Source: Octopus sinensis (Eukaryota). Taken from it: DNA of 64,000 bases. The position numbers and the translations under genes were made by a program. Every line of letters begins with the position of its first letter. Positions within the stretch are counted from its first letter, which is position 1. The notes below the pieces were generated by a model. It did not search any database and was not told the DNA's origin. It was given only the letters and a program-made list of their open reading frames with translations. Below are positions 12,686 through 50,217 of the stretch, piece by piece. The DNA lies in NCBI RefSeq assembly GCF_006345805.1, contig NC_043019.1:10539360-10603359 (forward strand), in the 5' to 3' direction.

Positions 12686-12884
12686 GTTAATCCAAACAAG
12701 AAAACACAAAAAAACACAGCAACGCGAGGACGTGGAACAAATATAGTATTATTGGACGCTCAGGAAAGAAGGGAAGAAGGAAGGTTTAACGTTTTGAGCG
12801 GAGCTCTTCATCGGAAACATAGGAAAAGGAAAGATCCAGAGAAGGGAAGACAGAGGAAAAAAAATCGCCAACGGTACACACGAG

Positions 12885-12890
<6 letters not shown>
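12686..12890 (-). mobile_element. Penelope-like pLTR remnant, family A, with minimal hammerhead motif
   Basis: Minus 12784-12818 reads GUUU-CCGAUGA-A-GAGC-UCC-GCUC-AAAAC-GUU-AAAC; homologues at 31679 and 50033; (AT)n flanks. Confidence 0.7.
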
Positions 12891-12915
<25 letters not shown>

Positions 12916-12917
<2 letters not shown>

Positions 12918-13269
12918 AAATACAAAATGGGACAAGAATGCAAAACATCCAGATAGACGATACAAAAAACACGGACAGGTCATTCGAAGCCTTTACTCTT
13001 CAGTCAAGAACCGGATCATCCTCGCAATTTCGGCTGATTAATCTTGAGATTGCTCCAATCTGGCCATTTGATCCTTTTTCCAAGAAATCTAATGCTCTTA
13101 GCTTAGTTTTTCCTTGGGGCTGGCCAGATTGGAGCAATCTCAAGATTAATCAGCCGAAATTGTGAGGCTGATCCGGTTCTTGACTGAAGATTGAAGGCTT
13201 CGAATGACCCGTGCGTATTTTTGCATCGTCTATCTGGATGCTTTGCGTTCTTGTCCCATTTTGTATTTA

Positions 13270-13270
<1 letters not shown>
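12916..13270. mobile_element. Inverted (fold-back) Penelope-like remnant, family C
   Basis: ~150-bp arms (12916-13066 / 13121-13270) with a 54-bp spacer and (AT)n flanks; homologous to 43060-43270, 48840-49030 and 55934-56050. Confidence 0.7.
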
Positions 13271-13313
<43 letters not shown>

Positions 13314-13335
13314 CGGCGTACGTACACTTTGTTCT

Positions 13336-13371
<36 letters not shown>

Positions 13372-14519
13372 TTTTGTGATGCAACTATGATAAAACATAT
13401 TAAATGCTTTATAAGTCAATACCATGTCCTTCTGTATTAGCAGTGCCATTAAAACACATGTTATGGTTCTCTCTATAGAGTTTCTATAGAAATTATAGCT
13501 GGCACCGATTTGCTATGACATTTCATATCTGAATACATCTAATGTAAACAACAATGCAATCGTTATCATTAATCGAGTCCTCTCTCTCCTCTCAAAGGAT
13601 CTTTGCCATGTAAAAAGCATCCAGTCTTCACTGCAAAGCAGTTGGTGTTAGGAAGGGTATCCAGCTGTAAAAACCATGCCAAAACAGACCTCACTAGTGC
13701 TGGTGCCCTGTAAAAAAGCACTGTCCATTCTGTGGTGGGGGTTAATGTTAGGAGGGGCATCCAGCCATAAAAACCCTGCCAAAACAGACAGTGAAGTCTG
13801 GTGCTGTCTTCATGCCCTTGAAGGAATTCCAGCTTGAGGCCCTGATAGCTCAAATGGTGGAGTTGTGATGTAGAGTCCTTAAAAATGAGTCTGAAAGTGA
13901 TCCCTCTTTCCACCAGAAACGAGGTGTGGGTAATCACCGATATCTTTTGTCAGTGTGACTGTTCCATGGCAGGGCACTACAAATATTTTCCAGGCTAAGC
14001 CTTATACTTTTAGAGTTATGGGGGGGGGGGTTGAAAATTAGGGAAGCATTATATACATGCACGATGCATCATTAAGATACATATGAAAATTCCAAAATAC
14101 TGTCAAACTGTCCAACCCATGGAAAACATTCATTAAAAGATGATGATGGTGATGATGATGATGATGATGTTGATAATAATATGAACAAACATCATAACAG
14201 TTTGACCTAAACTAATTCACGTTTTGTTCTGCAAGCTGTTTAAATCATTTTCACAATCCTATTTATTTAAAGGCATAATATGTTTATATGCTTAAAATAT
14301 TTAGCCCTTTATTAATGTAATGTTATTTAATTAGAAATTCCCCCGTTTAGTGGTAACTTTGAGTCAATACACATCATTAATTGAGACCAATTCCTTACTT
14401 CAAAACATTAACCAAAATGTATTTAGATGAATAAAACGGTAGAAAAGAAGGGTGGCTTTATTTATATAATTGCCATTTATATATAAGACAGTTTTAAGAG
14501 ATATATGTATGTATGTATG

Positions 14520-14586
<67 letters not shown>

Positions 14587-15010
14587 GGATCTTTTCGGTT
14601 TGAATGGCAGTTTTTTCTAGCGGTGTCATATGAAATTGTCACCCATAATTATGACCCTAGTATCGATCTATTGCATTTCAATCTGTTTTAGGGTTAGGGT
14701 TAGGGTTAGGGGTGGGGGAAGGGTATATTTTTTTCCTTCACAAATGTAAATAAACCTAATCTGTTTCTTAAACGAGGGACATATTCATACGGCACAGAAT
14801 GTTTTCACCTGCAATAGACGTCATTGATTGGTTGAAATTGCAGAAATTGAAGAAAAAAAACAACAAATATCTTACAAACTATAGAATTTTCTCAATAAAG
14901 CCAAGAGAAAATGATGTTTTATAAACACATTCTACCAGTTTACGGAGTTTAAAGTTTTTTAGTTACCTAGAAATTATGTTAAAAAACTGCTCTTCAAACC
15001 AAAAAGATCC
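14587..15010. mobile_element. MITE with GGATCTTTT TIRs in (AT)n, carrying (TTAGGG)4
   Basis: TIRs ggatcttttcggtttgaatggcagtttttt / aaaaaactgctcttcaaaccaaaaagatcc; TTAGGG x4 at 14688-14711. Confidence 0.85.
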
Positions 15011-15924
15011 ATATATATAGTGTGTATTTTTGTGTATGAACATGGTGTGTGTTACTGGAAAATATTTAATTATATTGTAATTCTAAAGAATAATCTTAAA
15101 CAATGATATATAAATATAAACTCAGCGATTTAAAGCGGGCATCCGGTACAGAAATAAATGCCATGATTACCTTATAAAGCCTGGCTTTTTCCATCTTCAT
15201 GTTATATTATTCTTATATAAAACGAAGCAGTTTTGCATTGTGTGGTATTATTTTAAGAGATTTATTGTGTAAGGCCAGAACAAAGAGAGAAGGTATAAAG
15301 TAAACTACAGAAGGAAGCTTTCTTTTGTTTTGTGCTCTTTTGTTTTTCCAGTTTATTTTCTATCTTCTCACATTCTTCCGGCCTTACACAACAAACCTTT
15401 TTTAATATATAAATATATATAGAGAGCAATAAGAAAATGGGGGGGGGGTCAATAAGTGGTTCATCAACTTTTAGACATTATATTATGTCAACTTATTTAT
15501 TTATTTCCTAAAATGGCAATTACAAGAATATACATACATGTATATACATATTATGCTTTACATATAAAATATATTAATATGTAAAGATACCAGTAATTAT
15601 TAAAATATAACTGATAATTACTGGTATCCATTTTCTTATTGCTATATAAATTAATGGTAAAATATCTCTTTACCTTCACCCATTTAGTACACTAGGTAAT
15701 GTAATTGCAAAGCAATAAAAAGCACTTGTGTATTAATAATTGGGTATTCTACCGGCAGTATATTGGATAGATATTATCCCTTAGTTGGTTGGATTCACAA
15801 CCTCTAGCTTTCTTTGTCAGTGTGGCTGTTCCATGGCAGGTCACTACAAATATTTTCCAGGCTAAGCCTTATACTTTTAGAGTTATGGGGAGTTGAAAAT
15901 TAGGGAAATGTTATATACATGCAC

Positions 15925-16244
15925 CAGTGCCGGTGGCACGTAAGAGAACCATCGGAACGTGGCTGTTGCCAGCTTCGTCTGGTCCCCGTGCCGGTGGCAC
16001 ATAAAAAGCACCATCCTATTGTGGTCGTTTGCCAGCCTTGTCTGGCACCTGTGCAGGTGGCACGTAAAAAACACCCACTACACTCACAGAGTGGTTGGCG
16101 TTAGGAAGGGCATCCAGCTGTAGAAACACTGCCAGATCAGACTGGGCCTGGCGCAGCTTTCTGGCTTCCCAGACCCGAGTTGAACCGTCCAACCCATGCT
16201 AGCATGGAAAACGGACATTAAACGATGATGATGATGATGATGAT
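15925..16244 (+). mobile_element. (GAT)n-tailed retroelement (RTE-associated SINE or LINE 3' end)
   Basis: ggttggcgttaggaagggcatccagctgtagaaa...ccaacccatgctagcatggaaaacggacattaaacgatgatgat; related pieces at 13610-13800, 7115-7160 and 63333-63500(-). Confidence 0.75.
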
Positions 16245-16572
16245 GATGCATCATTAAGATAAATATGAAAATTCCAAAATACTCTTTTTTTCTGCTTTTT
16301 GTAGCAACAGTTTTGTCATATGACAGCTTCCTTGCAATATCATTTTCTAGAGACAACATGCAAAAAGAATTTAAGCACTCTTCACAGTCATGGTAGACTG
16401 AAAATTATTCTTTACAAAGGAAAGCTTTGAGGAACTCCTTTCTGCTTCACAGCTTGTGATACGCATTGGCAAGTACAGCTGATGTGCAGTGGTAATATTA
16501 GGGGGGACACTCAATTAATTGTAAGCATTAATAAATCTCTGAACAAGGTATAAACAGTAACTGCACGACAAT

Positions 16573-16769
16573 GTGAGGTATATTTACCATCTCAATATGG
16601 CTAACCACTAAGGGTGGGTGTTACTGTAGCTTGTAGCTATTTGCAAATACCTTAAAGGCACAGAAAGTGTGCCTAAAGCCAGCTGGAGGAGATGTTCTCC
16701 TGGGGCTACAAGCTACAGTAACACCCACCCTTAGTGGTTAGCCATATTGAGATGGCAAATATACCTCAC
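16573..16769. repeat. Inverted repeat with 65-bp arms and 67-bp spacer
   Basis: gtgaggtatatttaccatctcaatatggctaaccactaagggtgggtgttactgtagcttgtagc and its reverse complement with one mismatch. Confidence 0.9.
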
Positions 16770-16940
16770 TTCAATTGATTGTTGCTTATAAATAAGCTGA
16801 AGACCTTCTGTGCATTGCCTTTTAGATGGTGTGTTTTCTTCTGTGTTCTGGGATTTCCTAAGGTGTAAATAATCTTTGAACTGATAACACTCATTTATTA
16901 ATTTGTGGTCAATATCGTCTTTGTAATGCGATATTATAAG

Positions 16941-17153
16941 TTTACTCTTTTACTCTTTTACTTGTTTCAGTCATTTGACTGCGGCCATGCTGGAGCGCCG
17001 CCTTTAATCGAGCAACTCGACCCCGGGACTTATTCTTTTTGTAAGCCCAGTACTTATTCTATCGGTCTCTTTTGCCGAACCGCTTAGTGACGAGGACATA
17101 AACACACCAGCATCGGTTGTCAAGCAATGCTAGGGGGACAAACACAGACACAA

Positions 17154-17185
<32 letters not shown>

Positions 17186-17497
17186 TGTTGAAGAGCGTAG
17201 GCTCGAAACATTAAAGACTTGTTTTATTTATATTTCCTGAGCGCCATACTAATACAATTGTTCGTTTGTTTTCCACCTGCCTTCGTCTTTTGTTTATTTT
17301 CATAAAGCTTCCCGTTATATATATATACATATATATATACGACAGGCCTCTTTCAGTTTCCATCTAACAAATCCACTCATGAGGCTTTGGTCGGCCCGAG
17401 GCTATAGCAGAAGACACTTGCCCAAGGTGCCACGCAGTGGGACTGAACCCGGAACCACGTGGTTGGTAAACAAGCTACTTACCACACAGCCACTCCT
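16941..17497 (-). mobile_element. SINE S1 interrupted by a family-B PLE-like remnant (17185-17316)
   Basis: Both S1 halves are present; the insert GTTGAAGAGCGTAGGCTCGAAAC... lies in the internal (AT)n tract. Confidence 0.85.
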
Positions 17498-17607
17498 AAG
17501 TTTGATTCTGTTCTCATCAAATTCTGAATTGTACATCAGTTCTGAGAGAAACCTGAACCTTTTTGCAATCTGCTCATGTAGTTGGAAAGTATATATATTT
17601 GTTTTAT

Positions 17608-18019
17608 ACTCTTTTACTCTTTTACTTGTTTCAGTCATTTGACTGTGGCCATGCTGGAGCACCACCTTTTAGTTGAGCAAATCGACCCCAGGACTTATTC
17701 GTTGTAAGCCTAGTACTTATTCTATCGGTCTTTTTTGCCGAACCACTAAGTTACGGGGACGTAAACACACCAGCATCGGTTGTCAAGCGATGTTGGGGGG
17801 ACAAACACAGGCACACAAACACGCACACACATATATATACATATATACATATATATGACGGGCTTCTTTCAGTTTCCGTCTACCAAATCCACTCACAAGG
17901 CTTTGGTCAGCCCAAGGCTATAGTAGAAGACACTTACCCAAGGTGTCACACAGTGGGAATGAACCCGGAACCATGTGGTTCGTAAGCAAGCTACTTACCA
18001 CACAGTCACTCCTACGCCT
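17608..18019 (-). mobile_element. SINE S1
   Basis: Full-length match to S1. Confidence 0.9.
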
Positions 18020-18106
18020 GGAAAGTATATTTTATTGTTTTATGTTAATTTTACAACAAAAACAAGCCTTAAGATCTAATAAAGGAGACTATTCAGTCAC
18101 TTTCCC

Positions 18107-18590
18107 TGCTAGAAATAGCAGCCAAATCTCTCCACAATCACACTACTGCTTTCAAATAGGGACGGACACATTAACCATGGTGAGAATTTTTGATTATAGT
18201 TCTACTGGATCAGAGTTGACTCGGGGTTAAATAGCAACAAGAAGTCTGCGGTAGTTTCACATGCTAGAAATAGCAGCCAAATCTCTCCACAATCACACTA
18301 CTGCTTTCAAATAGGGACGGACACATTAACCATGGTGAGAATTTTTGATTATAGTTCTACTGGATCAGAGTTGACTCGGGGTTAAATAGCAACAAGAAGT
18401 CTGCGGTAGTTTCACATGCTAGAAATAGCAGCCAAATCTCTCCACAATCACACTACTGCTTTCAAATAGGGACGGACACATTAACCATGGTGAGAATTTT
18501 TGATTATAGTTCTACTGGATCAGAGTTGACTATGGGTTAAATAGCAACAAGAAGTCTGCGGTAGTTTCACATGCTAGAAATAGCAGCCAA
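18107..18590. repeat. 155-bp tandem repeat, ~3.1 copies
   Basis: tgctagaaatagcagccaa at 18107, 18262, 18417 and 18572; units nearly identical. Confidence 0.95.
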
Positions 18591-18765
18591 GGATGGCAGA
18601 AGGATATATGAGTGTGTTGTATGTAGTTGTCAAACAAGAATAACACAAAAGCTATCATTCCCACATATAGTCTGAAACAAAGACAAGAATATAATGAACA
18701 ATTCTGTAAAATAATGAAAGGTAGGACGAGAAATCCAAGCGGGGTGTATGAATTAGGGGTGGGAG

Positions 18766-18888
18766 TGAAATAGAAAATGATGCTTCTATATATTCTATTA
18801 TTTGAAGGATTGTGAAATAAAATCCTAGGGAGATAGTAATGATTATAGAGTGGGTTGCGAATTTTAAATTGTTATTTATTAGTGAATA
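18766..18888 (-). pseudogene. cox3: NUMT: mitochondrial cytochrome c oxidase subunit III fragment
   Basis: Invertebrate mitochondrial translation gives SLMNNNLKFATHSMIITISLGFYFTILQMMEYMEASFSIS, matching the conserved COX3 motif LGxYFTxLQxxEYxEAxFxIS(D). Confidence 0.9.
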
Positions 18889-19294
18889 ATTACTGGTATC
18901 CATTTTCTTATTGCTCTATAACTTAATGATAAAATATCTCTTTACCTTCACCCGTTTAGTACACTCGGTAATGTAATTGCCATGCAATGAAAAAACACTT
19001 GCTTTGGTTAGGTCTTTTCATGTTTGTGTTTGTACCCCCAACATCGCTTGACAACAAATGGTGGTGTGTTTACATTCCCATAACTTAGCAGTTCGGCAAA
19101 AGAGACCAATAGAATAAGTACTATGCTTACAAAGAATAAGTCCTGGGTTGGTTAGGGTTGGTTAGGGTTGGTTTAAGTCTAACTATGAATCTGAAGAAAG
19201 TTGATGACAGTGTGTATGACAATGGAGAAGGAAGGAGTTAAACATATATAGCAAATGCTTTTGGATATATATGTATGTGTGTATATATGTATGT

Positions 19295-19780
19295 ATATAA
19301 GAAAAAGGGCAACAGGAATGATTGCGGTAATTATAGGGGAATATCATTGCTTTCTGTCGTAGGAAAGGTTTTATGCAGGGTACTTCTGGATCGGCTGCTG
19401 AAACACGTTGCAGATTGTGTTCTTCCAGAAAGTCAATCTGGCTTTCATGTGGCACACGGCACTGCTGATGTGATCTTTTCAGCTAGACAGCTTCAGGAGA
19501 AGTGTGGGGAACGAGGTCTGGATTTGTATCAGGTTTTTGTCGATCTGACAAAAGCCTTTGATACCGTTAATAGAAATGCACTGTGGAAAGTCCTCCAGAA
19601 ACTTGGGTGTCCAGAAAAGTTCCTTGCTTTGGTTAGGTCTTTTCATGAAGACATGAAGGGTAGGGTTAATGTTAGAGGTAAAATGTTGGAGACTATCTCA
19701 ATACAAAACGGAGTGAAACAGGGGGATGGGATATTCTGGCACTGACCCTATTTGCCATATATTTTGCAATGGTTTTCTGA
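19295..19780 (+). pseudogene. RTE-clade LINE reverse transcriptase fragment
   Basis: KKKGNRNDCGNYRGISLLSVVGK...LPESQSGF...FVDLTKAFDTVNR...NGVKQG; frameshifted after QG. Confidence 0.92.
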
Positions 19781-20454
19781 ATTGCATTGTATACAGTTAA
19801 AGTTTAGGATTATTCAGAGGATTATTAAGAATAATATCATAACAAAAGATAGAAATTTATGAATACTTTTGAGTATATTCCAAACTTTTACCACAATAGA
19901 GGGAGGGAAAGAAATTATCCAGAAATAGTTTAATATTTATACATATTGTACACTTAAATACTAACTCATCAGATGGTATCTGTGAATATTGATTAATTGG
20001 TATATACTGGTATTAATAAAGGAGTATTGAGGTAAAGGAACATGCTAATTATATATTAATAAAATTATAATCTAAGCATTTTTTTTTATAAGTAGTGAAT
20101 ATATCAGTATAGTTTTATATAAGCTAAGTATGTATTTATAGAGATACAAAAATTAGATTAATTTTATAAATAAATAAAGGCTAATTATAAAATAATAAAG
20201 AAATAAAATAAAGTAATCAAGTAGGGGAGAAAATCATAGAAAAGGAATAAAATAGCTTAATTACTAATACTATGGTAAAGTATATGTAGCTTATTAACAC
20301 CAATAGAGAAGGTTTTTAGAAAAAGTATAATAATTCAAAATATATTAGACTAAAAATTATATATCTACTTATTTAGCTAATATCAATAAAAGACTGATGT
20401 CTGGTATCAGCTAAAGGAATATTTAAGGTATGGAACAATCATATTTTACACTCA

Positions 20455-20845
20455 CATTTACTCATTTACTTGTTTCAGTCATTTGACTGCGGCCATGCTG
20501 CAGCACCACCTTTAGTCGAGCAAATCGACCCCGGGACTTATTCTTTGTAAGCCCAGTACTTATTCTATCGGTCTCTTTTGCCGAACCGCTAAGTGACGGG
20601 GACGTAAACACACCAGCATCGGTTGTCAAGCGATGCTAGACACACAAACACTCACACACATACATATATATATATATACATATATACGACAGGCTTCTTT
20701 CAGTTTCCATCTACCAAATCTACTCACAAGGCATTGGTTGGCCCGGGGCTATAACAGAAGACACTTGCCCAAGATGCCACGCAGTGGGACTGAACCCGGA
20801 ACCATGTGGTTGGTTAGCAAGCTACTAACCACACAGCCACTCCTG
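20455..20845 (-). mobile_element. SINE S1
   Basis: Match to S1 with a small internal deletion. Confidence 0.9.
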
Positions 20846-20924
20846 AAAAACTAAGGATTATATTATAGGTTTGAGAAGTTATTATTGTTTATTGATATTA
20901 GCTAAATAAGTAGATATATAATTT

Positions 20925-23719: not shown

Positions 23720-24615
23720 TACATAATGAGTCTCGAATGCTTGGTAATGAGTGGAAGACTATAATTAAGAATACAAGCAGCTGAAATAGGGTTTTCTCAA
23801 AAGGATCTTTGGAATAATGTTACTCAATGCATGGAATAGCTTGGAGATCCATGTAGTTTCTTATTTCTTTATTGCCCACAAGGGGCTAAACATAGAGGGG
23901 ACAAACTAGGACAGACAAAGGAATTAAGTCGATTACATCGACCCCAGTGCGTAACTGGTACTTAATTTATTGACCCCGAAAGGATGAAAGGCAAAGTCGA
24001 CCTCACTGGAATTTGAACTCAGAACATAACAGCTGACGAAATACCTATTTCTTTACTACCCACAAGGGGCTAAACATAGAGGGGACAAACAAGGACAGAC
24101 AAAGGGATTAAGTCAAATTATATCGTCCTCAGTGCGTAACTGGTACTTAGTATTTAATCAGCCCCAAAAGGATGAAAGGCAAAGTCGACCTCAGTGGAAT
24201 TTGAACTCAGAACGTAACAGCAGACGAAATACCTATTTCTTTACTACCCACAAGGCGCTAAACATAGAGGGGACAAACAAGGACAGACAAACGGATTAAG
24301 TTGATTATATTGATTCCAGTGCGTAACTGGTACTTAATTTATCGACCCGAAAGGATGAAAGGCAAAGTTGACCTCGGCGGAATTTGAACTCAGAACGTAA
24401 CGGCAGATGAAATACCGCTAAGCATTTCGCCCATCGTGCTAATGTTTCTGCCATCTTGCCGCCTTAGTTTCTCCAAGATCCATGTAGTTTCTCCAAGTCA
24501 GTCCATTACTTCTTTGTAGAGGTCACAGTGCTGGTACTGTAGATATGTGATTAGAAAACCACAGCAAAGAATCACAAGTCCGAATTCTTCAAACCAAGTT
24601 AACTGGCAGGTGCTG
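23720..24615 (+). pseudogene. Decayed RTE LINE C-terminal region hosting an S2 trimer
   Basis: RIQAAEIGF...KRIFG-like sequence before the insertion and WY...VIRKPQQRIT-like sequence after it. Confidence 0.55.
23862..24463 (-). mobile_element. SINE S2 head-to-tail trimer
   Basis: Three ~184-bp units with junction gacgaaatacc|tatttctttac and a single head at 24415-24463; flanking duplication agatccatgtagtttct at 23845-23861 and 24476-24492. Confidence 0.9.
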
Positions 24616-28796: not shown

Positions 28797-29900
28797 ATGG
28801 CGAAATGCTTAGCGGTATTTCGTCTGCCACTACGTTATGAGTTCAAATTCTGCCGAGGTCGATTTTGCCTTTCATCCTTTTGGGGGTCGATAAATTAAGT
28901 ACCAGTTACACACTGGGGTCGATGTAATCAACTTAATCCGTTTGTCTGTCCTTGTTTGTCCCCTCTGTGTGTAGCCCCTTGCGGGTAGTAAAGAAATAGG
29001 TATTTCGTCTGCCATTACGTTATGAGTTCAAACTCTGCCGAGGTCGACTTTGCCTTTCATCCTTTTGGGGCGATAAATTAAGTACCAGTTATGCACTGGG
29101 GTCGATGTAATCAACTTAATCCGTTTGTCTGTCCTTGTTCGTCCCCTCTGTGTGTAGCCCCTTGTGGGTAGTAAAGAAATAGGTATTTCGTCTGCCACTA
29201 CGTTATGAGTTCAAATTCTGCCGAGGTCGACTTTGCCTTTCATCTTCTCGGGGTCGATTAAATAAGTACCAGTTACGCACTGGGGTCGATGTAATCAACT
29301 TAATCCGTTTGTCTGTCCTTGTTTGTCCTCTCTGTGTGTAGCCCCTTGTGGGTAGTAAAGAAATAGGTATTTCGTCTGCCACTACGTTATGAGTTCAAAT
29401 TCTGCCGAGGTCGACTTTGCCTTTCATCTTCTCGGGGTCGATTAAATAAGTACCAGTTACGCACTGGGGTCGATGTAATCAACTTAATCCGTTTGTCTGT
29501 CCTTGTTTGTCCTCTCTGTGTGTAGCCCCTTGTGGGTAGTAAAGAAATAGGTATTTCGTCTGCCACTACGTTATGAGTTCAAATTCTGCCGAGGTCGACT
29601 TTGCCTTTCATCTTCTCGGGGTCGATTAAATAAGTACCAGTTACGCACTGGGGTCGATGTAATCAACTTAATCCGTTTGTCTGTCCTTGTTTGTCCTCTC
29701 TGTGTGTAGTAAAGAAGTAAGAATCGTTAGCACCCCGGGCAAAATGTTTACCTGCATTTCACCCGTCTTTACGTTCTGAGTTCAATTTCCGCTGAGGTCG
29801 ATTTTCATCTTTTCGGGGGTCAAGTACTGGGGTCGATGTAATCAACTATCCCTCTCCCCACAAATTGCAGGCTTTGTGCCTTTAGTAGAAAAGATTATTA
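28797..29900 (+). repeat. SINE S2 tandem array (5 x ~184 bp) plus a diverged related copy
   Basis: ggtatttcgtctgcc starts at 28814, 28999, 29182, 29366 and 29550; an older copy lies at ~29722-29900. Confidence 0.92.
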
Positions 29901-30779: not shown

Positions 30780-31187
30780 CTTAAGCGGATACTCACAAAT
30801 GCAAAACTATATTCAAAGCAACATTTTTAAATGTGGACGACCGAACTGTGGAGCATGTCCCAACATAATGGAAGGCTCAGAATTCCATTTTAAACAAAAT
30901 TCAAATTAAAACTGACTTCACTTCTGCCTCTGAAAATCTCATCTATGTCATAACATGTTCTGACTGCAGTAGATATATAGGTTCAACAGGAATGTCCCTA
31001 AGATGTAGAACTACACTACACAAATAACAAATCTACCCCCCCATACCGTAAAATACCACTCAGTGGTCACATAAACACAATAGTCCCACTATACCGATGC
31101 ACGGAAAGGACCCCAACTCAACAACGACTAAATAAAGAGACTACATGTATTGAAAAATACAAGCCAGAACTTAACATGACTATATAA
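30780..31187 (+). pseudogene. Penelope-like element (Neptune-type) Cys-rich linker plus GIY-YIG endonuclease remnant
   Basis: Frameshifted pieces: LKRILTNAKLY; KCGRPNCGACPNIMEGSEF; SENLIYVITCSDCSRYIGSTGMSLRCRTTLH; QRLNKETTCIEKYKPELN. A degenerate hammerhead-like taaaccggtcg follows at ~31412. Confidence 0.8.
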
Positions 31188-31636
31188 TGGACTTCACAAA
31201 TAAAAAACAATCAGAAAAAAGGAAAAAATATTTACTTCCCCTTAACTAAGAAATATTATATCCACTGATTATCCCTTTAGCCAATTATGTTCGCTGATTA
31301 TCCTCTTTGAGCAATATTCTGTATAACCACAAAACTGTATCATACCTGTTTCTACGCAAGTTTATATCAAAAGCTTATGATTTCATAACATTGAATCATG
31401 ATTATCTAAGTTAAACCGGTCGACTCTGTACATACTGTAATAGATTAAATAATTTTTATCTATACAAATAAGATTTCTGTGCTTTTTCAGCTTAAATCTT
31501 ATTTTATATTTACCAACACGTGGAATCTCCCTCTGATTTTTCACACACACACACACAAACACACACACACAACACACACACACACAACACACACACCACA
31601 CACACACACACACACCACACACACACACACACACAC

Positions 31637-31678
<42 letters not shown>

Positions 31679-31682
<4 letters not shown>

Positions 31683-31885
31683 ATCCAAACTTGAAAACAC
31701 AAAGAGAAATCACAACAATGCAAGGACGTGGAACAAGTATAGTGTTATTGGACGCTCAGGAAAGAAGGAAAGAAGGAGGGTTTAACGTTTCGAGAGGAGC
31801 TCTTCGTCAGAAACATAGGAAAAGGAAAGATCCAAAGAAGGGAAGACGGAGGGGAAAAAAATCGCCAACAGTACACACGCGGTCA
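31679..31885 (-). mobile_element. PLE-like remnant, family A, with hammerhead motif
   Basis: Minus 31780-31814 reads GUUU-CUGACGA-A-GAG-CUCCU-CUC-GAAAC-GUU-AAAC. Confidence 0.72.
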
Positions 31886-32348
31886 CATACACACACATAC
31901 GACGGGCTCATTTCAGTTTCCGTCTACAAAATCCACTCACAAGGCTTTGGTCGGCCTGATGCTATAGTAGAAGACACTCATCCTTGGTACCACGCAGTGG
32001 GATTGAACCCGGAACTATGTGGTTGGGAAGCAACACAGACAAAATGCCTCCAGTTATTTTGTCCACCATGATAACAATTTTGCCAGCACGGTGCCTTGAA
32101 AAATAAATAAGTATAATATTTAGTTGGTTGTATGAATGTATGACTGCATACGTGTTAATATCTATACGAAAGAATACATATACGATAGGCACAGAGTGAC
32201 TGTGTGGTAAGTAGCTTGTTTACCAACCACATGGGTCCGGGTTCAGTCCCACTGCGTGGCACCTTGGGCAAGTGTCTTCTACTATAGCCTCGGGTTGACC
32301 AAAGCCTTGTGAGTGGATTTGGTAGACGGAAACTGAAAGAAGCCCGTC

Positions 32349-41659: not shown

Positions 41660-42051
41660 TCTCTGCTATTAATGTGTCGTGAAAAGAGGGGAGGATTCGC
41701 TTGACGGACTCCTTTACAGTTTGTTAACCGCTACCAAAGAGAAGACGTATCCAGCTTCATTCAACGACAGTAATCAGCTACATAAAAAGCCACCGCGGAT
41801 TAATGGGAAACCCGATGGTGGACAGCTTCATTTGCATATTTGTATGTTTGGTGACTTGTCATTAATTGAGCATTAAGAGAAATCATGTCTAACATATTCT
41901 GAGTTTTTGCTTAGGGATGGCGCATTGTCCAACACGTTCTTTCTTTTTTTAAAAAGAAAAATTACGGTTGTTTGTGAGTTGACAAAAATTTGGCTGCTAC
42001 GGACGTAGAACTTTTACACATTGAGAACTTTCGTCTGCTACCAAGTATATA

Positions 42052-42617
42052 TTGGGTTGTCCGGAAAGTTCGTGCCGATTTATAGTAGCTTACCTTTCGA
42101 CTTATTTTAGAACATGGTTGAGTCCTTAAAATAGGATTTGACTACACCTCCATTTAGAGCACAGTTTAAGCTATCTTTTCGTGGAAGAAGGTTTATGTTC
42201 CTATAACCTGTGTTAATTCTGTAACCCTTTAAAATGGAAGATAAGAAAGTTCATTTTCGGCACTTGATGCTTTGGGAACCAGACAAAAATTGCTGCAGCT
42301 CGGCTGGGATGTGTTACCCCACCCTCCATATTCACCAGATATTGCTCCTTCGGATCTCCACTTATTCAGGTCTCTGCAGAATAGTCTTAATGGTAAAAAT
42401 TTCAATTCCTTGGATGACGTAAAAAGATAGCTTGATGAATTCTTTGCCATGAAACCACCTCAATTCTAGGAAGAGGGTATTTTCAAGTTAAAGGAAAGAT
42501 GGAGATGCATTGTGCAACAAAATGGTTCATATTTGGTTGATTAAAAATGTAATGGCAAGTATTTATTGACCTTTTTCTTTCCTTTAAAAATCGGCACGAA
42601 CTTTCCGGACAACCCAA
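42052..42617 (+). mobile_element. Internally deleted mariner element
   Basis: Perfect 30-bp TIRs ttgggttgtccggaaagttcgtgccgattt with TA TSD; MEDKKVHFRHLML fused to LGWDVLPHPPYSPDIAPSDLHLFRSLQN...RWRCIVQQNGSY. Confidence 0.95.
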
Positions 42618-42865
42618 TATAATGCCACACACACACACACACACACACAACACACACACACACACACACCACACACGCATACCACCAACTACAGGCAAAT
42701 AATGAAATGCATTATAATCGAACCAAGCGAAATCAAGTTTATTGAGCGTGGTACCTTTTGAAAAGTCACTTGATGAGAGACATCTGATGGAAGATGGGTC
42801 GAAACGATCGTTCTGATTAATAATCGCTTGAATCCAGTTTTCTCTTCGCTCATTTGTTATACACA

Positions 42866-43036
42866 CGCGATGCTGGTGTGTTTACGTCCCCGTAACTTAG
42901 CGGTTCGGCAAAAGAAAACGATAGAATAAGTACTAGGCTTACAAAGAATAAGTCCTGGGTCGATTTGCTCGACTAAAGGCGGTGCTCCAGCATGGCCGCA
43001 GTCAAATGACTGAAACAAGTAAAAGAGTAAAAGAGA
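42866..43036 (+). mobile_element. SINE S1, 3' half
   Basis: Body and tail match S1. Confidence 0.85.
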
Positions 43037-43059
43037 GTAAGAGTGTATATATATATATA

Positions 43060-43400
43060 AGGATAAATGTTTATATACATAAAGAACGTGAAATACAGGA
43101 AGGGACCAACACGTAACACGACAAATCATTCGAAGGACCCCCGAAGCCTTCAATCTTCAGTCAGACAAGACACATCATCATAGCAAATTTCGGCTGTTCA
43201 ATTCTGATATTTGCTCCAACTCGGCCAGTCCCAAGAAAAAAAACTAAGCTGTAGCATTAGATTTTTGGTAGAAGACAGGAATGTGAACGCACGAGACGGA
43301 TGTAAATACGAGAGACGAAAACGAAATTGAAAACGGTACGGTTAACAAAATATAATATAACGGTGGTTGTCATACGACTTTAGAGACCAAATGAGACAAA
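43060..43400 (-). mobile_element. PLE-like remnant, family C
   Basis: cgaagccttcaatcttcagtcag...aaatttcggctg...ctaagctgtagcattagat, homologous to 12916-13270. Confidence 0.6.
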
Positions 43401-43546
43401 AACAACAACATAGCACCGGCGTAGAAATAATTACCTTTTCGGTAGATATATATATGTATGTATATGTATATATATGTATGTATATGTATGCATATAGATA
43501 TTGTATGTATATATATAATGTATGTATATATATATATATTAATATC

Positions 43547-43577
<31 letters not shown>

Positions 43578-43660
43578 ATTTGTAATATGTATATATATGT
43601 ATGTATATGTATGTATATATAATATATATATTATATATATATATATTATATATATATATA

Positions 43661-43733
43661 TATTGTACACCACCTGTTTTGTACACCACCTGTCTTCGTC
43701 TTTTGTTTTTTTTTCGTAAACTTTCCCTATATA

Positions 43734-43779
<46 letters not shown>

Positions 43780-44072
43780 GAAAGTTTACGAAAAAAAAAA
43801 ACAAAAGACGAAGACAGGTGGTGTACAAACAGGTGTGTACAATATATATATATATATATATATCTATAGATATATATATAGGGAGAGTTTAAGAAAAAAA
43901 CAAAAGACGAAGACAGGTGGTGTACAAAACAACAGATGTATTATATAACGCTCAGGAATAGAAAAAAGTCTTTTACGTTTCGAGCCTACGCTCTCCTACA
44001 GAAAGGGACACAGGAAAAACAAAAAAAAAAGGAGAGAAAAAAAAATGTGTGTAGTGGCTAACGATCTATCAT
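43661..44072 (-). mobile_element. Family-B PLE-like remnant plus inverted partial copies around (AT)n
   Basis: 43661-43727 and 43777-43843 are mutual reverse complements; motif CUUU-CUGUAGGA-GAGC-GUAG-GCUC-GAAAC-GUA-AAAG at 43970-44005(-). Confidence 0.7.
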
Positions 44073-44784
44073 ATATAAGATGCAAATATTAAACATTGTT
44101 TAATATAAAATTATAAATTACAGAAATTGAAGATTCACTATATTTTTTTTCTCCTCAGAAATATGATCCTTTAGGTTCTCGTGTACTCGTAATTTCCGCC
44201 CCTCCCTCCCTGCTGAAACGATGCCCCCCACCCATCCATCCATACATACATACACACAGACAAAAGCTCCGGCTTAGATTTACCTTGTTGTCTAGTAAAA
44301 AGTCTTGTTGTTGTTGTTGTTGGTGGTGGTGCATTTGCTTCTCGTGAACTGACCGAGAAAGCTCACAAAACAGCCAATCAGCGAAAAGACACAAGTCCTG
44401 CTCCACCCCCCACCCCCCACCTCCACCCCCCACCTCCACCCCCGCCTCCATCCCTTAACACCCGACCAAGCACGACAAACACCACTCACACCACCACCAC
44501 CACCACCACCACCACCGCAGTCACAACTGCTATCACATGCTCTACATACACTGCCGTCACCACCACCACCACCATTACTAACCAGTCTCGTCGGTCGCCG
44601 CAAAGGGATTGGCTACCGACAACAAATTACCGACATCGCAATCACCACCACCATCACCACCACCAACAACAACATCAACGGAATTTGTTTGTTCAACAGA
44701 AATTGTTTGGTGTTGATGTTGTTGTGTAAGTAAGTAACTGCTCGTCCGAGCCAGCCCCGACGTAGCAAAACCTTTATGATCAGA

Positions 44785-45115
44785 GCCGAGGTCGACTTTG
44801 CCTTTCATCCTTTCGGGGTCGATAAATTAAGTACCAGTTACACACTGGGGTCGATATAATCGACTTAATACCTATGTCTGTCCCCGTTTGTCCCCTCTGT
44901 GTTTAGCACCTTGTGGGGTAGTAAAGAAATAGGTATTTTGTCTGCCACTACGTTCTGAGTTCAAATTCCGCCGAGGTCGACTTTGTCTTTCATCCTTTCG
45001 GGGTCGATAAATTAAGTACCAGTTACACACTGGGTTCGATATAATCGACTTAATACCTATGTCTGTCCTTGTTTGTCCCCTCTATGTTTAGCCCCTTGTG
45101 GGTAGTAAAGAAATA
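44785..45115 (+). mobile_element. SINE S2 dimer, 5'-truncated
   Basis: Junction gtaaagaaataggtattttgtctgcc at ~44921-44946. Confidence 0.85.
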
Positions 45116-45333
45116 TATGATCAGAGCTGAGCTCAAGGGTTGCTGGCGACCCGGGAAAGTTGAATTTCGGCACCCATAAATTAGTTGTCTAAAGATTTTC
45201 ACAGAAACAATTGAAAATGTAACGAAAGTGTTTTTAATGTCAAAATAAAAATATATATATTTATCAAATATAGGAATATAATCTATATTACTAATGTTAT
45301 TAAATATAAGGATTAAGTGTGTATTATAATTTA

Positions 45334-45725
45334 CTAGCAGTATCGCCCGGCGTTGCTCGGGTTTGTTTCGACCCTTTAGAATTGGACTTTTTGAAAAGTA
45401 AAAATTTTGCATTATGTAGCTTGTTATTCTCATTAAGAGAACACTTTTCTGGTTGAAATACACCGAGAAATGGCGACACAGCAGTCAAAATATCGTAAAA
45501 AGTAGGGATTTTCAAGAAAAAAAAAAAGCACCTTTTTGATGTAAATAATTTTTGGTGTTAACATGGTCCGATTTTAATTTTTTTTCTACGGAAGGAAGAG
45601 CAAGCCTTCTTCTATCATACTCTCAATTTTGGTCAACCTGCGCCGCAGGGTCTCGGAGGAGATAGTGTTAGTTGAAGGCTACCAAACCTGCTTATACACA
45701 GACTTCGGCTTTATATATAGAGAGA
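45334..45725 (-). mobile_element. Non-autonomous Helitron
   Basis: 5' TC, 3' hairpin cccgagcaacgccggg followed by CTAG|T; homologous to the 52450 array. Confidence 0.85.
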
Positions 45726-45867
45726 TTTAGATTTAGAAATAAAATATTTATTGTGTTAAATATAAAAGTAGATTGTATAGTTTATAATGTTTATAATAAT
45801 TTATTAAAGATGAGAAAATATTAATTGCAGTTTATTAAATATAGGAATAAACTGTCATTAAATGTAG

Positions 45868-46150
45868 GAATATGGCTCAGTGGTTAGAACATCGGGCTTA
45901 CAATCATGTAGTTGTGAGTTCGATTCCCGGACCGGACCGTGTGTTGTGTTCTTGAGCAAGACACTTTATTCCATGTTGTTCCAGTTCACTCAGCTGTAGA
46001 AATGAGTTGAGTATCGGCTTTTGCCTTTCCCTTGGATAACATTGGCCTCATGGAGAGGGAAGCTGGTATGCATGGGCGACTGCTAGTCTTCCATAACCTT
46101 GCCTGGACTTGTCCCTCAGAGGGGAAACTTTCCAGGTGCAATCCCATGGT
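45868..46150 (+). mobile_element. tRNA-derived SINE, family S4
   Basis: A box TGGCTCAGTGG, B box GAGTTCGATTCC, CORE/V-like ttcttgagcaagacactt. Confidence 0.75.
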
Positions 46151-46553
46151 CATACGCACACACACAAATGCACATACACGTATCCTGTTAATGTACTCTA
46201 TAGAATTATGGAGCAACGAGGTAAGGTGTACTCTGAATGAGAACAAAAACGTTGTTTATGAATTACAGACTTCTATTGTAGCTCTTATTGTAACTGCTTA
46301 ACACAAGGCCTTGGCCTCGTGTTATTTTTAGCAGATTGAGCGACCCATGATAGCTCCCTGTGAATAAGATATCTCATCCGTAACCAATCTGTCACGTTTT
46401 TAAGCTGTATGCATTTAAGAATACGCCATTTCAAATTGTCTTTCTTTCAAATTTACGGCAATTTAGCAACTATTTCTAGTAGGTTGTGTGACCTATGATA
46501 GCGCCAAACCAATGACATAAGACACCCCGTGCGTGTCCTCATTGGTTCAGTAC

Positions 46554-47772
46554 AACTAGGATCAAAGCCATGCCAGCCGTGACCATCTCCCTTTATGTGG
46601 TGGGTTGAGTAGAACTAGGATCAAACCCATGCCAGCCGTGAACATCTCCCTTTATGTGGTGGGTTGAGTAGAACTAGGATCAAAGCCATGCCAGCCGTGA
46701 CCATCTCCCTTTATGTGGTAGGTAGAGTAGAACTAGGATCAAAGCCATGCCGGCCGTGAACATCTCCCTTTATGTGGTGGGTAGAGTAGAACTAGGATCA
46801 AAGCCATGCCAGCCGTGACCATCTCCCTTTATGTGGTGGGTAGAGTAGAACTAGAATCAAAGCCATGCCAGCCGTGACCATCTCTCTTTATGTGGTGTGT
46901 TGAGTAGAACTAGGATCAAAGCCATGCCAGCCGTGACCATCTCCCTTTATGTGGTGGGTTGAGTAGAACTAGGATCAAAGCTATGCCAGCCGTGACCATC
47001 TCCCTTTATGTGGTGGGTTGATTATAACTAGGATCAAAGCCATGCCAGCCGTGACCATCTCCCTTTATGTGGTGGGTTGAGTAGAACTAGGATCAAAGCC
47101 ATGCCAGCCGTGACCATCTCCCTTTATGTGGTGGGTTGAGTAGAACTAGGATCAAAGCCATGCCAGCCGTGACCATCTCCCTTTATGTGGTGGGTTGAGT
47201 AGAACTAGGATCAAAGCCATGCCAGCCGTGACCATCTCCCTTTATGTGGTGGGTTGAGTAGAACTAGGATCAAAGCTATGCCAGCCGTGACCATCTCCCT
47301 TTATGTGGTGGGTTGAGTAGAACTAGGTTGAAAGCCATGCCAGCCGTGACCATCTCCCTTTATGTGGTGGGTTGAGTAGAACTAGGATCAAACCCATGCC
47401 AGCCGTGACCATCTCCCTTTATGTGGTGGGTTGAGTAGAACTAGGATCAAAGCCATGCCAGCCGTGACCATCTCCCTTTATTGTGGGTGGGTTGAGTAGA
47501 AATAGGATCAAAGCCATGCCAGCCGTGACCCCCCCTTTATGTGGTGGGTTGATTATAACTAGGATCAAAGCCATGCCAGCCGTGACCATCTCCCTTTATG
47601 TGGTGGGTTGAGTAGAACTAGGATCAAAACCATGCCAGCCGTGACCATCTCCCTTTATGTGGTGGGTTGAGTAGAACTAGGATCAAAACCATGCCAGCCG
47701 TGACCATCTCCCTTTATGTGGTGGGTTGAGTAGAACTAGGATCAAAACCATGCCAGCCGTGACCATCTCCCT
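46554..47772. repeat. 59-bp minisatellite, ~20.6 copies
   Basis: Unit agaactaggatcaaagccatgccagccgtgaccatctccctttatgtggtgggttgagt; followed by (TATC)n at 47775-47940. Confidence 0.97.
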
Positions 47773-47795
47773 TCTATTATCTATCTATCTATCTA

Positions 47796-47880
<85 letters not shown>

Positions 47881-47881
47881 G

Positions 47882-47937
<56 letters not shown>

Positions 47938-48278
47938 GCTATTTATCTCCCTGCCTGCCTGCCTGTCTGCCTGTCCTCTATGTTATTTTTCCGCTTATAA
48001 TAAAAAACACAACTCCTAAAACGCAGTAAACATCCTCCCTTCCTTCCTATATAATTAATCTCCAGTAAACAAGTAATCCAAGCTGAGCTTCGCATAAACA
48101 AGCAGCTGCCACAGCAAATTTAGGGCATACCAACCATAGTTTCCCGCCAAAATCACTCTAGCCACGCCTACTCCGACCACATGCTTTATAATATCTTATG
48201 TAATTATCTGTTAAAGACGGTGGCGGGAGATGAATATGTCTTCACTAATAACCTTTATATCACCGTAACCCTATGATG

Positions 48279-48313
<35 letters not shown>

Positions 48314-48619
48314 ACACGAAACTAAACAAGTACTTAATGGTGTTGTTGTCGTTGTTCACGTAAATATGTAGTTGCGGGGTTTTATTTTTCTGGTTTTTAT
48401 TTAAAGTGTCCGTTTAGTTAGCATTTTTTTTTTCGACAAGGTCACGTTTTTTTCCACAATATTGTGTTTACGTGCACATATGTGTATTTACTTACATTTG
48501 CTTATTATATATATATATATAAATATAGATATATATATATTATATATATATATATAGATATATATATATATATAGTGTATGTATATATATATATATAACT
48601 ACAAAATTAGAACCTATAT

Positions 48620-48651
<32 letters not shown>

Positions 48652-48834
48652 ATATAGATATATATATATATAATATATATATATATAAGAATGTATGTAA
48701 TATTTATATATATATATATATTATATATAGGTTCTAATTTTGTAGTTATATATATATTATATATATATATTAGATATAGGTTCTAATTTTGTAGTTATAT
48801 ATATATATATATATAAGTGTAAACAGTAAAAATA

Positions 48835-49200
48835 ATTACAGACATGGACAAGAACATGAAACACCACAGAGACGACACAAGAACCACAGGACGGGACATT
48901 CGAAGCCCTCAGTCATCAGTCAAGAACCAGATCATCTTAGCAATTTCGGCTGATTATCTTGAGATTGCTCCGATATGGCCAGCCCGCCAAGGGAAATCTA
49001 AGCCAAGCGCATTAGATCCCTGAAGAAAGCTTCGAATGTATACAACGCGAGGACGGAAACGAACGAAGTACATAAACAAAATACAGAATACGTGACACCA
49101 AAAGAAATACAAAAACGTAAAAACAATAACGGTAAAAATAAAAATAAAAAAATAAACAACAAAACAAAAACCAGACGTAGGACAAGGGTCTTTCGACAGG
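48835..49200 (-). mobile_element. PLE-like remnant, family C, between (AT)n tracts
   Basis: ggacaagaac...cattcgaagccctcagtcatcagtcaagaaccagatcatc...gcaatttcggctgattatcttgagattgctcc. Confidence 0.65.
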
Positions 49201-49236
49201 ATATATATATATATATATATAATTAATATAATATAT

Positions 49237-49285
<49 letters not shown>

Positions 49286-49331
49286 ATATATATAATATAT
49301 ATATATATATATATAATATATATATATATAT

Positions 49332-49379
<48 letters not shown>

Positions 49380-49383
49380 TATA

Positions 49384-49427
<44 letters not shown>

Positions 49428-49449
49428 ATATATATATATATATTATATA

Positions 49450-49779
49450 TAGGCGTAGAGTGGCTGTGTGGTAAGTAGCTTGCTTACGAACCACATGGTT
49501 CCGGGTTAAGTCCCACTGCGGGGCACCTTGGGTAAGTGTCTTCTACTATAGCCTCGGGCCGACCAAAAGCCTTGTGAGTGGATTTGGTAGACGGAAATGA
49601 GAAGCCCGTCATATATATGACATATTATATATATATATAGCGGTTCGGCAAAAAGAGACCGATAGAATAAGTACTAGGCTTACAAAAGAATAAGTCCCGG
49701 GGTCGAGTTGCTCGACTAAAGGTGGTGCTCCAGCATGGCCGCAGTCAAATGACTGAAACAAGTAAAAGAGTAAAAGAGT
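49450..49779 (+). mobile_element. SINE S1 with a deletion adjoining its (AT)n tract
   Basis: Head and tail are intact; ~70 bp of the body is missing after the tract. Confidence 0.85.
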
Positions 49780-49802
49780 ATATATACATACATATTATAT
49801 AT

Positions 49803-49968
49803 ATTTCGTCTGGCGTTACGGTCTGAGTTCAAATTCCGCCGAGGTCGACATTGCCTTTCATCCTTTCGGGGTCGATAAATAAAGTACCAATTTCGCACTG
49901 GGGTCGATTTAATCGACTTAATCCCTTTGTCTGTCCCTGTTTGTCCCCTCTGTGTTTAGCCCTTGTGC
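49803..49968 (+). mobile_element. Headless SINE S2 unit
   Basis: Begins at tatttcgtctgg, which is the multimer junction position. Confidence 0.8.
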
Positions 49969-49983
49969 GCCGTATATAAATAA

Positions 49984-50029
<46 letters not shown>

Positions 50030-50032
50030 AAC

Positions 50033-50217
50033 TTAATCCAAACAAGAAAACAAAAAGACAACAACGCAAGGACGTGGAACAAATAAAGTATTATTGGACG
50101 CTCAGGAAAGAAGGGAAGAAGGAGGGTTTGACGTTTCGAGCGGAGCTCTTCGTCGGAAACATAGGAGACGGGAGGACAGAGGAAAAAAAAATCGCGGTGG
50201 TATTCACGAGGTCACAT
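50033..50217 (-). mobile_element. PLE-like remnant, family A, with hammerhead motif
   Basis: Minus 50126-50160 reads GUUU-CCGACGA-A-GAGC-UCC-GCUC-GAAAC-GUC-AAAC. Confidence 0.72.

What the first reader, a model, noticed from the sequence alone, without database searches (positions are those of the whole stretch)
12686..50217. Dispersed short non-coding family (A) with minimal hammerhead motifs, always at (AT)n
Seen: three ~200-bp copies (12686, 31679, 50033, all minus) that abut (AT)n. Combined, they reconstruct GUUU-CUGACGA-A-GAGC-UCC-GCUC-GAAAC-GUC-AAAC: stem I, catalytic core, stem II, a loopless palindromic AC/GU stem III and a GUC triplet; no single copy has every canonical base. Known: Penelope-like elements carry such minimal hammerheads in their pLTRs, thought to cleave as dimers, and metazoan non-LTR retrozymes are short hammerhead-bearing non-autonomous units. 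Inference: a ribozyme-processed, microsatellite-targeting retroelement family, possibly mobilised by Neptune-type PLEs like the GIY-YIG remnant at 30780.
Basis: partly seen in the sequence, partly recalled or inferred. Interest (0 to 1): 0.75.

Follow-up and report, generated by a model that had tools for sequence, protein, structure and literature searches.

The report
Solo ends of a Penelope-like retrotransposon
The three short repeats are cut-off terminal repeats of an ordinary protein-coding Penelope-like jumping gene that carries a known type of small self-cutting-RNA motif (cutting untested), and they likely land in AT repeats because the element's own RNA holds a short matching UA run at which copying would start.

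Summary
The three copies and the hammerhead-like motif are real, but family A is not a stand-alone non-coding element. It is the terminal repeat (pLTR) of a 6-7 kb Penelope-like retrotransposon with reverse transcriptase, CX4CX2C linker and C-terminal GIY-YIG endonuclease; window copies are 95-98% identical to leader- or ORF-linked pLTRs. At least 5,367 copies exist. (AT)n abuts the 3' end in 81 of 90 copies (background 6-7%). In 5' pLTRs the element itself continues as UUUAUAUAC, so a nicked (TA)n target could prime internally. 59 of 90 copies start 98-114 nt upstream of the predicted cut and 83 of 90 span it, which argues against processing as a retrozyme unit. The GIY-YIG remnant at 30780 is a different, distant family with its own terminus. 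Verdict: new member of a known kind; the internal UA anchor, sharp 5' end and U4C core are testable extras. Other notes of this scan report PLE hammerhead ends elsewhere in this genome; no sequence match to this family was returned.

The parts
12686..12890 (-). Family A copy 1: solo pLTR of the Penelope-like element, main CCGA/GUU subfamily
   Evidence: 96% identical to both pLTRs of the ORF-bearing element in L154
12784..12818 (-). Minimal hammerhead motif of copy 1; U4C (family trait), G12A (CpG-type decay, predicted inactive), GUU triplet
31679..31887 (-). Family A copy 2: solo pLTR, CUGA subfamily
   Evidence: 95% identical to the leader/ORF-linked pLTR in L279
31780..31814 (-). Minimal hammerhead motif of copy 2; all invariant core bases, GUU triplet, stem II shortened to 3 bp by one substitution; predicted cut after 31784
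50033..50221 (-). Family A copy 3: solo pLTR, CCGA/GUC subfamily, 16-nt deletion upstream of the core
   Evidence: 98% identical over 152 aligned nt to the ORF-linked 5' pLTR in L164
50126..50160 (-). Minimal hammerhead motif of copy 3; U4C, intact stems, GUC triplet; predicted cut after 50130
31637..31678 (.). (TA)n target tract at the 3' end of copy 2 (similar tracts at about 12671-12685 and 49973-50029 for copies 1 and 3)
30799..31540 (+). Unrelated PLE 3' remnant (decayed zinc-finger linker and GIY-YIG, 3' UTR, own terminus with a different hammerhead-like motif at about 31393-31426); neighbour only, not part of family A

Best explanation
Family A is the terminal repeat (pLTR) of a 6-7 kb protein-coding Penelope-like retrotransposon of Neptune/Nematis type, and the roughly 210-nt solo copies likely arise when the element's endonuclease nicks a (TA)n tract, the freed DNA end likely pairs with a UAUAUA run just past the pLTR in the element's RNA, and reverse transcription likely runs about 210 nt to the RNA's 5' end. 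Shown: the pLTR-ORF link, domain content, 3' (TA)n junctions, the element-encoded UUUAUAUAC continuation, the clustered 5' ends. Inferred: priming by pairing; that the 5' boundary is a transcription start (an initiator-like YC(A/T)TTY motif lies there; the motif match is recalled, not tested); that the RNA copied was uncut at the hammerhead. The hammerhead is a minimal, dimer-type motif with a U4C core and GUU triplet, predicted to be slow and possibly protein-assisted; it is a passenger in the solo copies, which decay without visible selection.
For: Link to ORF: six places hold the ORF N-terminus and the deep 3' UTR on one strand 2.4-4.8 kb apart; fetched regions show pLTR-leader-ORF-CA-rich UTR-pLTR in L154, partial tandem in L164, and full structure with a 1008-codon open frame in sister-family L157 and L158. 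Family A ORF pieces are mostly 60-97% identical to that protein and keep the linker and endonuclease motifs; the listed homologues carry PF00078, PF26215 and in part PF01541. Target: (TA)3 within 14 nt of the 3' end in 81 of 90 copies against 6.8% (window) and 6.4% (distal flanks). Anchor: 31 exact genomic pLTR-leader junctions read ...AAC-TTTATATAC (pattern fixed on this form; a scan of all held loci found 37 of this form, 12 of the sister form and 1 unrelated hit); solo junctions are TTTATA 30 and TATA 36 of 86. The sister family has a shorter anchor (TTATAC) and matching junctions. 5' ends: 59 of 90 in a 17-nt span, 24 shorter, 3 slightly longer, 4 over 500 nt. Long copies are 4 of 60 core-selected family A against 17 of 30 sister-family copies, as expected if a 6-nt anchor primes internally better than a 4-nt one. 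Structure: stem II invariant while its loop varies, one G-C to C-G swap in stem I across related families. PMC11167929 shows internal initiation and use of uncut RNA in another PLE.
Against: No RNA ends, promoter or cleavage data; no RNA holder with raw reads was listed. PMC11167929 found that Poseidon initiates at sites not homologous to the target, so pairing-based priming is not established for EN+ PLEs. The 5' cluster coincides with the only ATGTG/TGTGT microhomology nearby, which could explain part of it without a start site. Only 7 of 31 leader-bearing copies begin in 117-149, and only about 5 of 30 sister-family copies begin near the equivalent motif, so the boundary is family-specific. 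The solo/long contrast rests on two families of different age. Covariation is a single event; the sister family has a U-U mismatch in stem I; predicted stem I pairing in the whole pLTR is only 0.06. No intact family A ORF was found among the 20 long regions fetched. Samples come from the first listed places on one contig, selected by exact 33-35-nt matches, so they favour young copies.
Confidence: 0.72

Rival explanations
1. Same origin, but most solos were amplified SINE-fashion from other solo copies: a solo pLTR with its own promoter is transcribed into the flanking (UA)n and copied in trans by the PLE protein.
For: Sharp 5' end and very high solo excess (against 38); the TATA junction form (36 of 86) matches a solo or 3' pLTR template perfectly but the internal site with one mismatch; small leader-only dimers exist (L173, L176, L273, L275, L278, L285, L289); pLTR cis-sequences were reported to suffice for mobilisation in rotifers (PMC3846280, passages).
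Against: Each of the three window subfamilies has a 95-98% identical leader- or ORF-linked pLTR; 30 of 86 junctions carry the internal TTTATA register; I did not test for solo-only diagnostic variants. Not exclusive with the best explanation.
Confidence: 0.17
2. Solos are ordinary 5'-truncated 3' ends, or products of recombination between the two pLTRs of full-length copies, with the 5' cluster caused by microhomology to (AT)n/(GT)n or a reverse-transcriptase pause.
For: PLE insertions are typically 5'-truncated (PMC8557442) and solo pLTRs have been attributed to recombination or deletion (PMC3846280); ATGTG at offset 127 overlaps the cluster.
Against: 59 of the 66 copies that reach offset 121 stop within 17 nt, while 4 of the 7 that pass it run over 500 nt; 15 ends lie at offsets 133-134 with little microhomology; 5' ends of leader-bearing copies are scattered, so recombination would not give a peak.
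Confidence: 0.07
3. One reading: a non-autonomous, ribozyme-processed retrozyme-like unit that cycles through circular RNA and borrows another PLE such as the 30780 remnant family.
For: Short unit, hammerhead motif, a few head-to-tail arrangements (L154 has three pLTRs in a row; leader-only dimers); 2 of 90 copies start one base inside the predicted cut.
Against: Own ORF exists; copies are dispersed singles; the motif is central, so cutting would halve a solo; a circle would not give a fixed 5' end 100 nt upstream of the cut; 2 of 24 short copies at the cut is close to the 0.65 expected for a 3-nt window under uniform truncation (my arithmetic); remnant family unrelated.
Confidence: 0.04

Closest known systems
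Minimal type I hammerheads in pLTRs of metazoan PLEs (Cervera and de la Pena 2014, PMC4209133; parts 1-2 of 4 read)
   Same: Loopless palindromic helix III, extra base between positions 9 and 10.1, G10.1-C11.1 pair, 4-bp helix I, location in pLTRs, mostly found as single motifs of truncated PLEs.
   Different: Majority core is U4C with GUU (GUA and GUC subfamilies); helix II is 4 bp with a 3-nt loop rather than the 7-8 bp described for Schistosoma; no octopus example in the parts read.
Neptune/Nematis-type EN+ PLEs (defined in Craig et al. 2021, PMC8557442; passages read)
   Same: RT then CX2-5CxxC linker then GIY-YIG with CCHH; DKG motif; partial tandems, inverted 5' copies; (TA)n insertion bias associated with the linker.
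   Different: Very long (about 3 kb) CA-rich 3' UTR; large excess of fixed-length solo pLTRs; element-encoded UA anchor at the 3' boundary. Neptune against Nematis not resolved.
Poseidon of Anolis, PAc (Frangieh et al. 2024, PMC11167929; main text, parts 1-2 of 4 read)
   Same: Internal initiation of reverse transcription downstream of the hammerhead, AT-rich targets, uncut RNA as template, optional 3' extension.
   Different: PAc initiates at sites not homologous to the target and its hammerhead overlaps the start codon; here the initiation site matches the (TA)n target over 6-7 nt and the ORF starts about 300 nt further on.
Metazoan non-LTR retrozymes (PMC7229834, passages; bioRxiv 10.64898/2026.07.22.740005, part 1 of 5 and passages)
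   Same: Similar unit size, type I hammerhead, sequence kinship with pLTRs.
   Different: Retrozymes are tandem, non-coding and carry canonical hammerheads; family A is dispersed, minimal and has its own ORF.
EN-minus Athena/Coprina PLEs (as summarised in PMC8557442, passage)
   Same: A simple-repeat stretch near the hammerhead helps attach to a matching DNA end.
   Different: They use telomeric overhangs and lack an endonuclease; here the repeat is (TA)n and an endonuclease is present. Analogy only.

Membership tests
EN+ Penelope-like element, Neptune/Nematis type | Single ORF with RT followed by C-terminal GIY-YIG endonuclease | tested here: met
   1008-codon frame in sister copies L157/L158, weak RVT_1 hit below Pfam cut-off, homologues with PF00078/PF01541; family A pieces mostly 60-97% identical
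EN+ Penelope-like element, Neptune/Nematis type | CX2-5CxxC linker before the endonuclease; CCHH with two Cys inside GIY-YIG; DKG motif | tested here: met
   residues 876-884, 915-929, 942, 957, 413 of the L158 frame; linker and endonuclease motifs also in family A loci L152, L153, L156, L162, L164
EN+ Penelope-like element, Neptune/Nematis type | pLTR direct repeats or partial tandems around the ORF, 5' truncation, inverted 5' copies | tested here: met
   L154, L157, L158, L160, L161, L164; inverted copies in L024, L051, L165, L169
EN+ Penelope-like element, Neptune/Nematis type | Optional 30-40 bp 3' tail | tested here: inconclusive
   about 9 of 31 leader-bearing copies end in TA-rich tracts 50-130 nt past the pLTR; longer and more scattered than the described tail
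Neptune clade specifically | RT phylogeny with reference Neptune and Nematis sequences | not tested
   no named reference proteins among the hits shown
Minimal type I hammerhead of PLE pLTRs | Core boxes CUGANGA and GAAA, NUH triplet | tested here: inconclusive
   all invariant positions kept except U4, which is C in 61 of 79; U4C is a known natural, low-activity variant (PMC3088659, passage); G at position 17 in 1 of 200 listed
Minimal type I hammerhead of PLE pLTRs | Extra base before 10.1, G10.1-C11.1, palindromic 15.2-16.2, short helix I | tested here: met
Minimal type I hammerhead of PLE pLTRs | Self-cleavage (weak, as dimer or protein-assisted) | not testable with these tools
   folding only: double-hammerhead form -5.7 kcal/mol against -22.5 for the best alternative dimer of the 35-nt core
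Non-LTR retrozyme | Tandem arrays of hammerhead-bearing units | tested here: not met
   listed places are almost all isolated singles; longest run seen is three copies separated by (TA)n in L154
Non-LTR retrozyme | No protein-coding parent sharing the unit | tested here: not met
   unit is the pLTR of an ORF-bearing element
Non-LTR retrozyme | Abundant linear and circular monomer RNA | not testable with these tools
   no raw RNA reads listed

The most novel reading that the evidence does not exclude
An endonuclease-bearing Penelope-like element carries a built-in UAUAUA anchor in its RNA that base-pairs with the nicked (TA)n target, telomerase/Athena-style, and the length of this anchor decides whether the element makes full copies or sprays thousands of SINE-like solo leaders that start at its own promoter, with a hammerhead tuned down (U4C, GUU) so that the template stays uncut.
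Probability: 0.35. Interest if true: 0.55.

Novelty: new member of a known kind. Interest (0 to 1): 0.3.

Why it matters
As a class this is known: PLE pLTRs with minimal hammerheads, mostly as single truncated motifs, inserting in (TA)n. The value is practical. Why PLEs favour microsatellites and how their 3' ends are set are named as open in PMC8557442, and this family pair gives a direct test: two sister families about 89% identical in the pLTR differ in the length of an internal UA run and in their share of solo copies, and one still has an open 1008-codon frame that could be expressed. It also means thousands of apparent short SINE-like repeats in this genome should be annotated as PLE ends.

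Tried and rejected
Rfam scans: no hammerhead family hit among the rows shown; minimal motifs lack the modelled stems, so this is not evidence against. Expression: no RNA holder listed; laying four contig sets cannot show starts, ends or cleavage, no pile-up of ends or splice-like joint appeared in the guessed-RNA runs, and the roughly thousand-fold higher summed depth over the pLTR than over the leader is not a copy number. A second cut at the GUC just before the 5' boundary by the same core in trans-like pairing: rejected by inspection, stem I cannot pair and the sister family lacks the triplet. A Pol III B-box at the boundary: one simple pattern found none. Selection on the core in genomic copies: substitutions there are no rarer than in the flanks and fall largely on CpG. 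A conserved downstream box as an 'off' switch: pairing probability 0.02-0.50 across the five representatives scored, inconclusive. The 30780 remnant as driver: rejected. PMC12602865 (passages) gave nothing on target choice. The Fisher test compared differently selected samples, so I rely on the like-for-like counts instead; L034/L035 and L084/L085 in that set are local duplicates.
Full report
Observation. The genome is 2.7 Gb and the family is large: a 35-nt pattern downstream of the motif has 5,367 exact hits, the core with C at hammerhead position 4 has 3,904 and with U 1,031, with zero hits for reversed controls. These are lower bounds. The host looks like an octopus from its repeat content (recalled, also said in other notes of this scan; not needed for the argument).

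I took 90 copies selected only by the downstream 35-mer (30 loci and 60 of the remaining 70 listed places; the 10 left out were mostly already held from earlier calls). In the 79 that aligned over the core the motif reads GUUU CCGACGA A GAGC UCC GCUC GAAAC GUU AAAC, with position 4 C in 61 and U in 17, and the cleavage base U in 76. The first 100 listed CUGA cores have GUU 81 and GUA 19, never GUC; the first 100 CCGA cores have GUU 87, GUC 12, GUG 1. U4C is a natural variant said to lower activity considerably in vitro while allowing viroid infectivity (PMC3088659, passage). Across related families in the fetched loci stem II never varies while its loop does, and one stem I pair swaps G-C for C-G; that is one event, so support for structure is real but thin. 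Within family A the core is no better kept than its flanks, as expected for dead copies.

What it is. Several copies share upstream sequence, up to 954 nt, that is CA-rich, and one had the start of a PLE ORF upstream. Searching with a deep UTR motif and with that peptide gave six places with both on one strand 2.4-4.8 kb apart. Among 20 long regions fetched, L154 shows pLTR, leader, broken ORF, CA-rich UTR, pLTR; L164 a partial tandem of the copy-3 subfamily; L157, L158, L160 and L161 a sister family with the same core and, in two, an open frame of 1008 codons. That protein has DKG, the RT motifs, a CX4CX2C linker and a GIY-YIG-type domain with two internal cysteines and two histidines; family A ORF pieces are mostly 60-97% identical to it and keep these motifs. 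Its listed homologues carry PF00078, PF26215 and in part PF01541; the direct Pfam scan gave only a sub-threshold RVT_1 hit. By the definitions in PMC8557442 (passages) this is a C-terminal-endonuclease PLE of Neptune or Nematis type. The window copies are 96%, 95% and 98% identical to leader- or ORF-linked pLTRs. Family A is therefore the pLTR of its own autonomous lineage. No intact family A frame was among the regions fetched.

The remnant at 30780. It is a real decayed linker plus GIY-YIG on the plus strand, but it ends in its own terminus with another motif, matches the family-A-type protein only distantly, and 0 of 19 other loci of its family have family A nearby. It and copy 2 simply share a microsatellite.

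How it likely works. The 3' end is fixed and (TA)3 follows within 14 nt in 81 of 90 copies against 6-7% background. Where the pLTR continues into the leader, the element's own sequence reads TTTATATAC (31 exact hits), so the RNA holds UAUAUA exactly at the boundary; solo junctions are TTTATA in 30 and TATA in 36 of 86. The sister family continues TTATAC and most of its junctions read TTATA then (TA)n. I infer that the nicked target pairs with this run and primes reverse transcription internally, or in the flanking (UA)n of a read-through 3' pLTR. The 5' ends are not random: 59 of 90 fall in a 17-nt span 98-114 nt upstream of the predicted cut, 24 are shorter, 3 slightly longer and 4 run over 500 nt into the UTR. 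The upstream edge coincides with a TCATTC/TCTTTC motif that resembles Pol II initiators (recalled). The simplest reading is run-off at the RNA's 5' end. Like-for-like, long copies are 4 of 60 in family A and 17 of 30 in the sister family with the shorter anchor. Against this: microhomology at the same spot, different family ages, scattered 5' ends in leader-bearing copies (7 of 31 near the boundary), and the report that Poseidon initiates at non-homologous sites (PMC11167929).

Role of the ribozyme. 83 of 90 copies span the cut site, so their template was uncut or rejoined; a circle would not stop at a fixed point upstream. Two copies begin one base inside the cut, not more than chance allows. 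This fits PMC11167929, where uncut RNA is the main substrate and cleavage needs the protein, and PMC4209133, where minimal motifs cut weakly and only as dimers. Folding does not favour the active form. Natural head-to-tail dimers do exist as short pLTR-leader-pLTR copies. Activity is untested.

Novelty. Minimal hammerheads in pLTRs, found mostly as single motifs of truncated PLEs, are published, as are (TA)n bias and kinship of retrozymes with pLTRs (bioRxiv 10.64898/2026.07.22.740005; PMC7229834). Five searches showed no paper describing this family, a U4C pLTR hammerhead or a target-matching UA anchor in an EN+ PLE; I saw listings for most hits, and Repbase, Dfam and the supplements of PMC8557442, PMC4209133 and PMC13282606 (part 1 of 3 read) were not examined and may hold the family. 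Earlier notes of this scan describe other PLE hammerhead ends in this genome in similar terms; sequence look-ups for this family returned nothing. My reading was recorded before I saw them. Verdict: new member of a known kind, interest 0.3.

Noticed in passing
window 4423-4463 (+), 17177-17217 (+), 43969-44009 (-); L075, L166, L299: A related pLTR family with the same stem II but core CUGUAGA/CUGUUGA (A6U), a 4-nt loop and the compensatory C-G pair in stem I; also ends in (TA)n.
   Followed up: partly
window 31393-31426 (+); L323, L327, L329, L332, L335, L338: The remnant family's terminus has a hammerhead-like motif with 5-bp stem I, a 2-bp stem II, palindromic ACCGGU helix III and an A3-U8 pair in place of C3-G8.
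   Followed up: partly
20-30 nt downstream of the cut in all families aligned (A2): A CCUGAGCG box is kept although the spacer before it diverges; it is complementary to the 3' strand of stem II and could be a switch or a protein or promoter site.
   Followed up: partly
window 12921-13265, with single arms near 48846-49017, 43142-43274, 55935-56003: A 343-bp two-armed (head-to-head) element between (TA)n tracts directly upstream of copy 1; looks like an inverted PLE-type insertion of another family.
   Followed up: no
window 22726 (+), 25329 (+), 11844 (-), 11915 (+): Further CUGANGA...GAAA motifs with other stems; 22726 has a GUC triplet and a U/A stem I.
   Followed up: no
L173, L176, L273, L275, L276, L278, L285, L289, L037, L165: Short pLTR-leader-pLTR or pLTR-partial ORF-pLTR composites whose second pLTR often starts near the same 5' boundary, suggesting template jumps; they place two hammerheads 400-600 nt apart.
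   Followed up: partly
L158 4660-7600; L154 4914-7060: The 3' UTR is 2-3 kb of degenerate (CA)n/(CATA)n, so long copies seed CA-rich tracts; L158 also has a GC-rich island in it.
   Followed up: no
window 46544-47773, 28814-29709, 23862-24416, 18107-18590, 52452-53286: Tandem arrays with periods 59, 184, 188, 155 and 388 nt; several are built from abundant SINE-like units.
   Followed up: no
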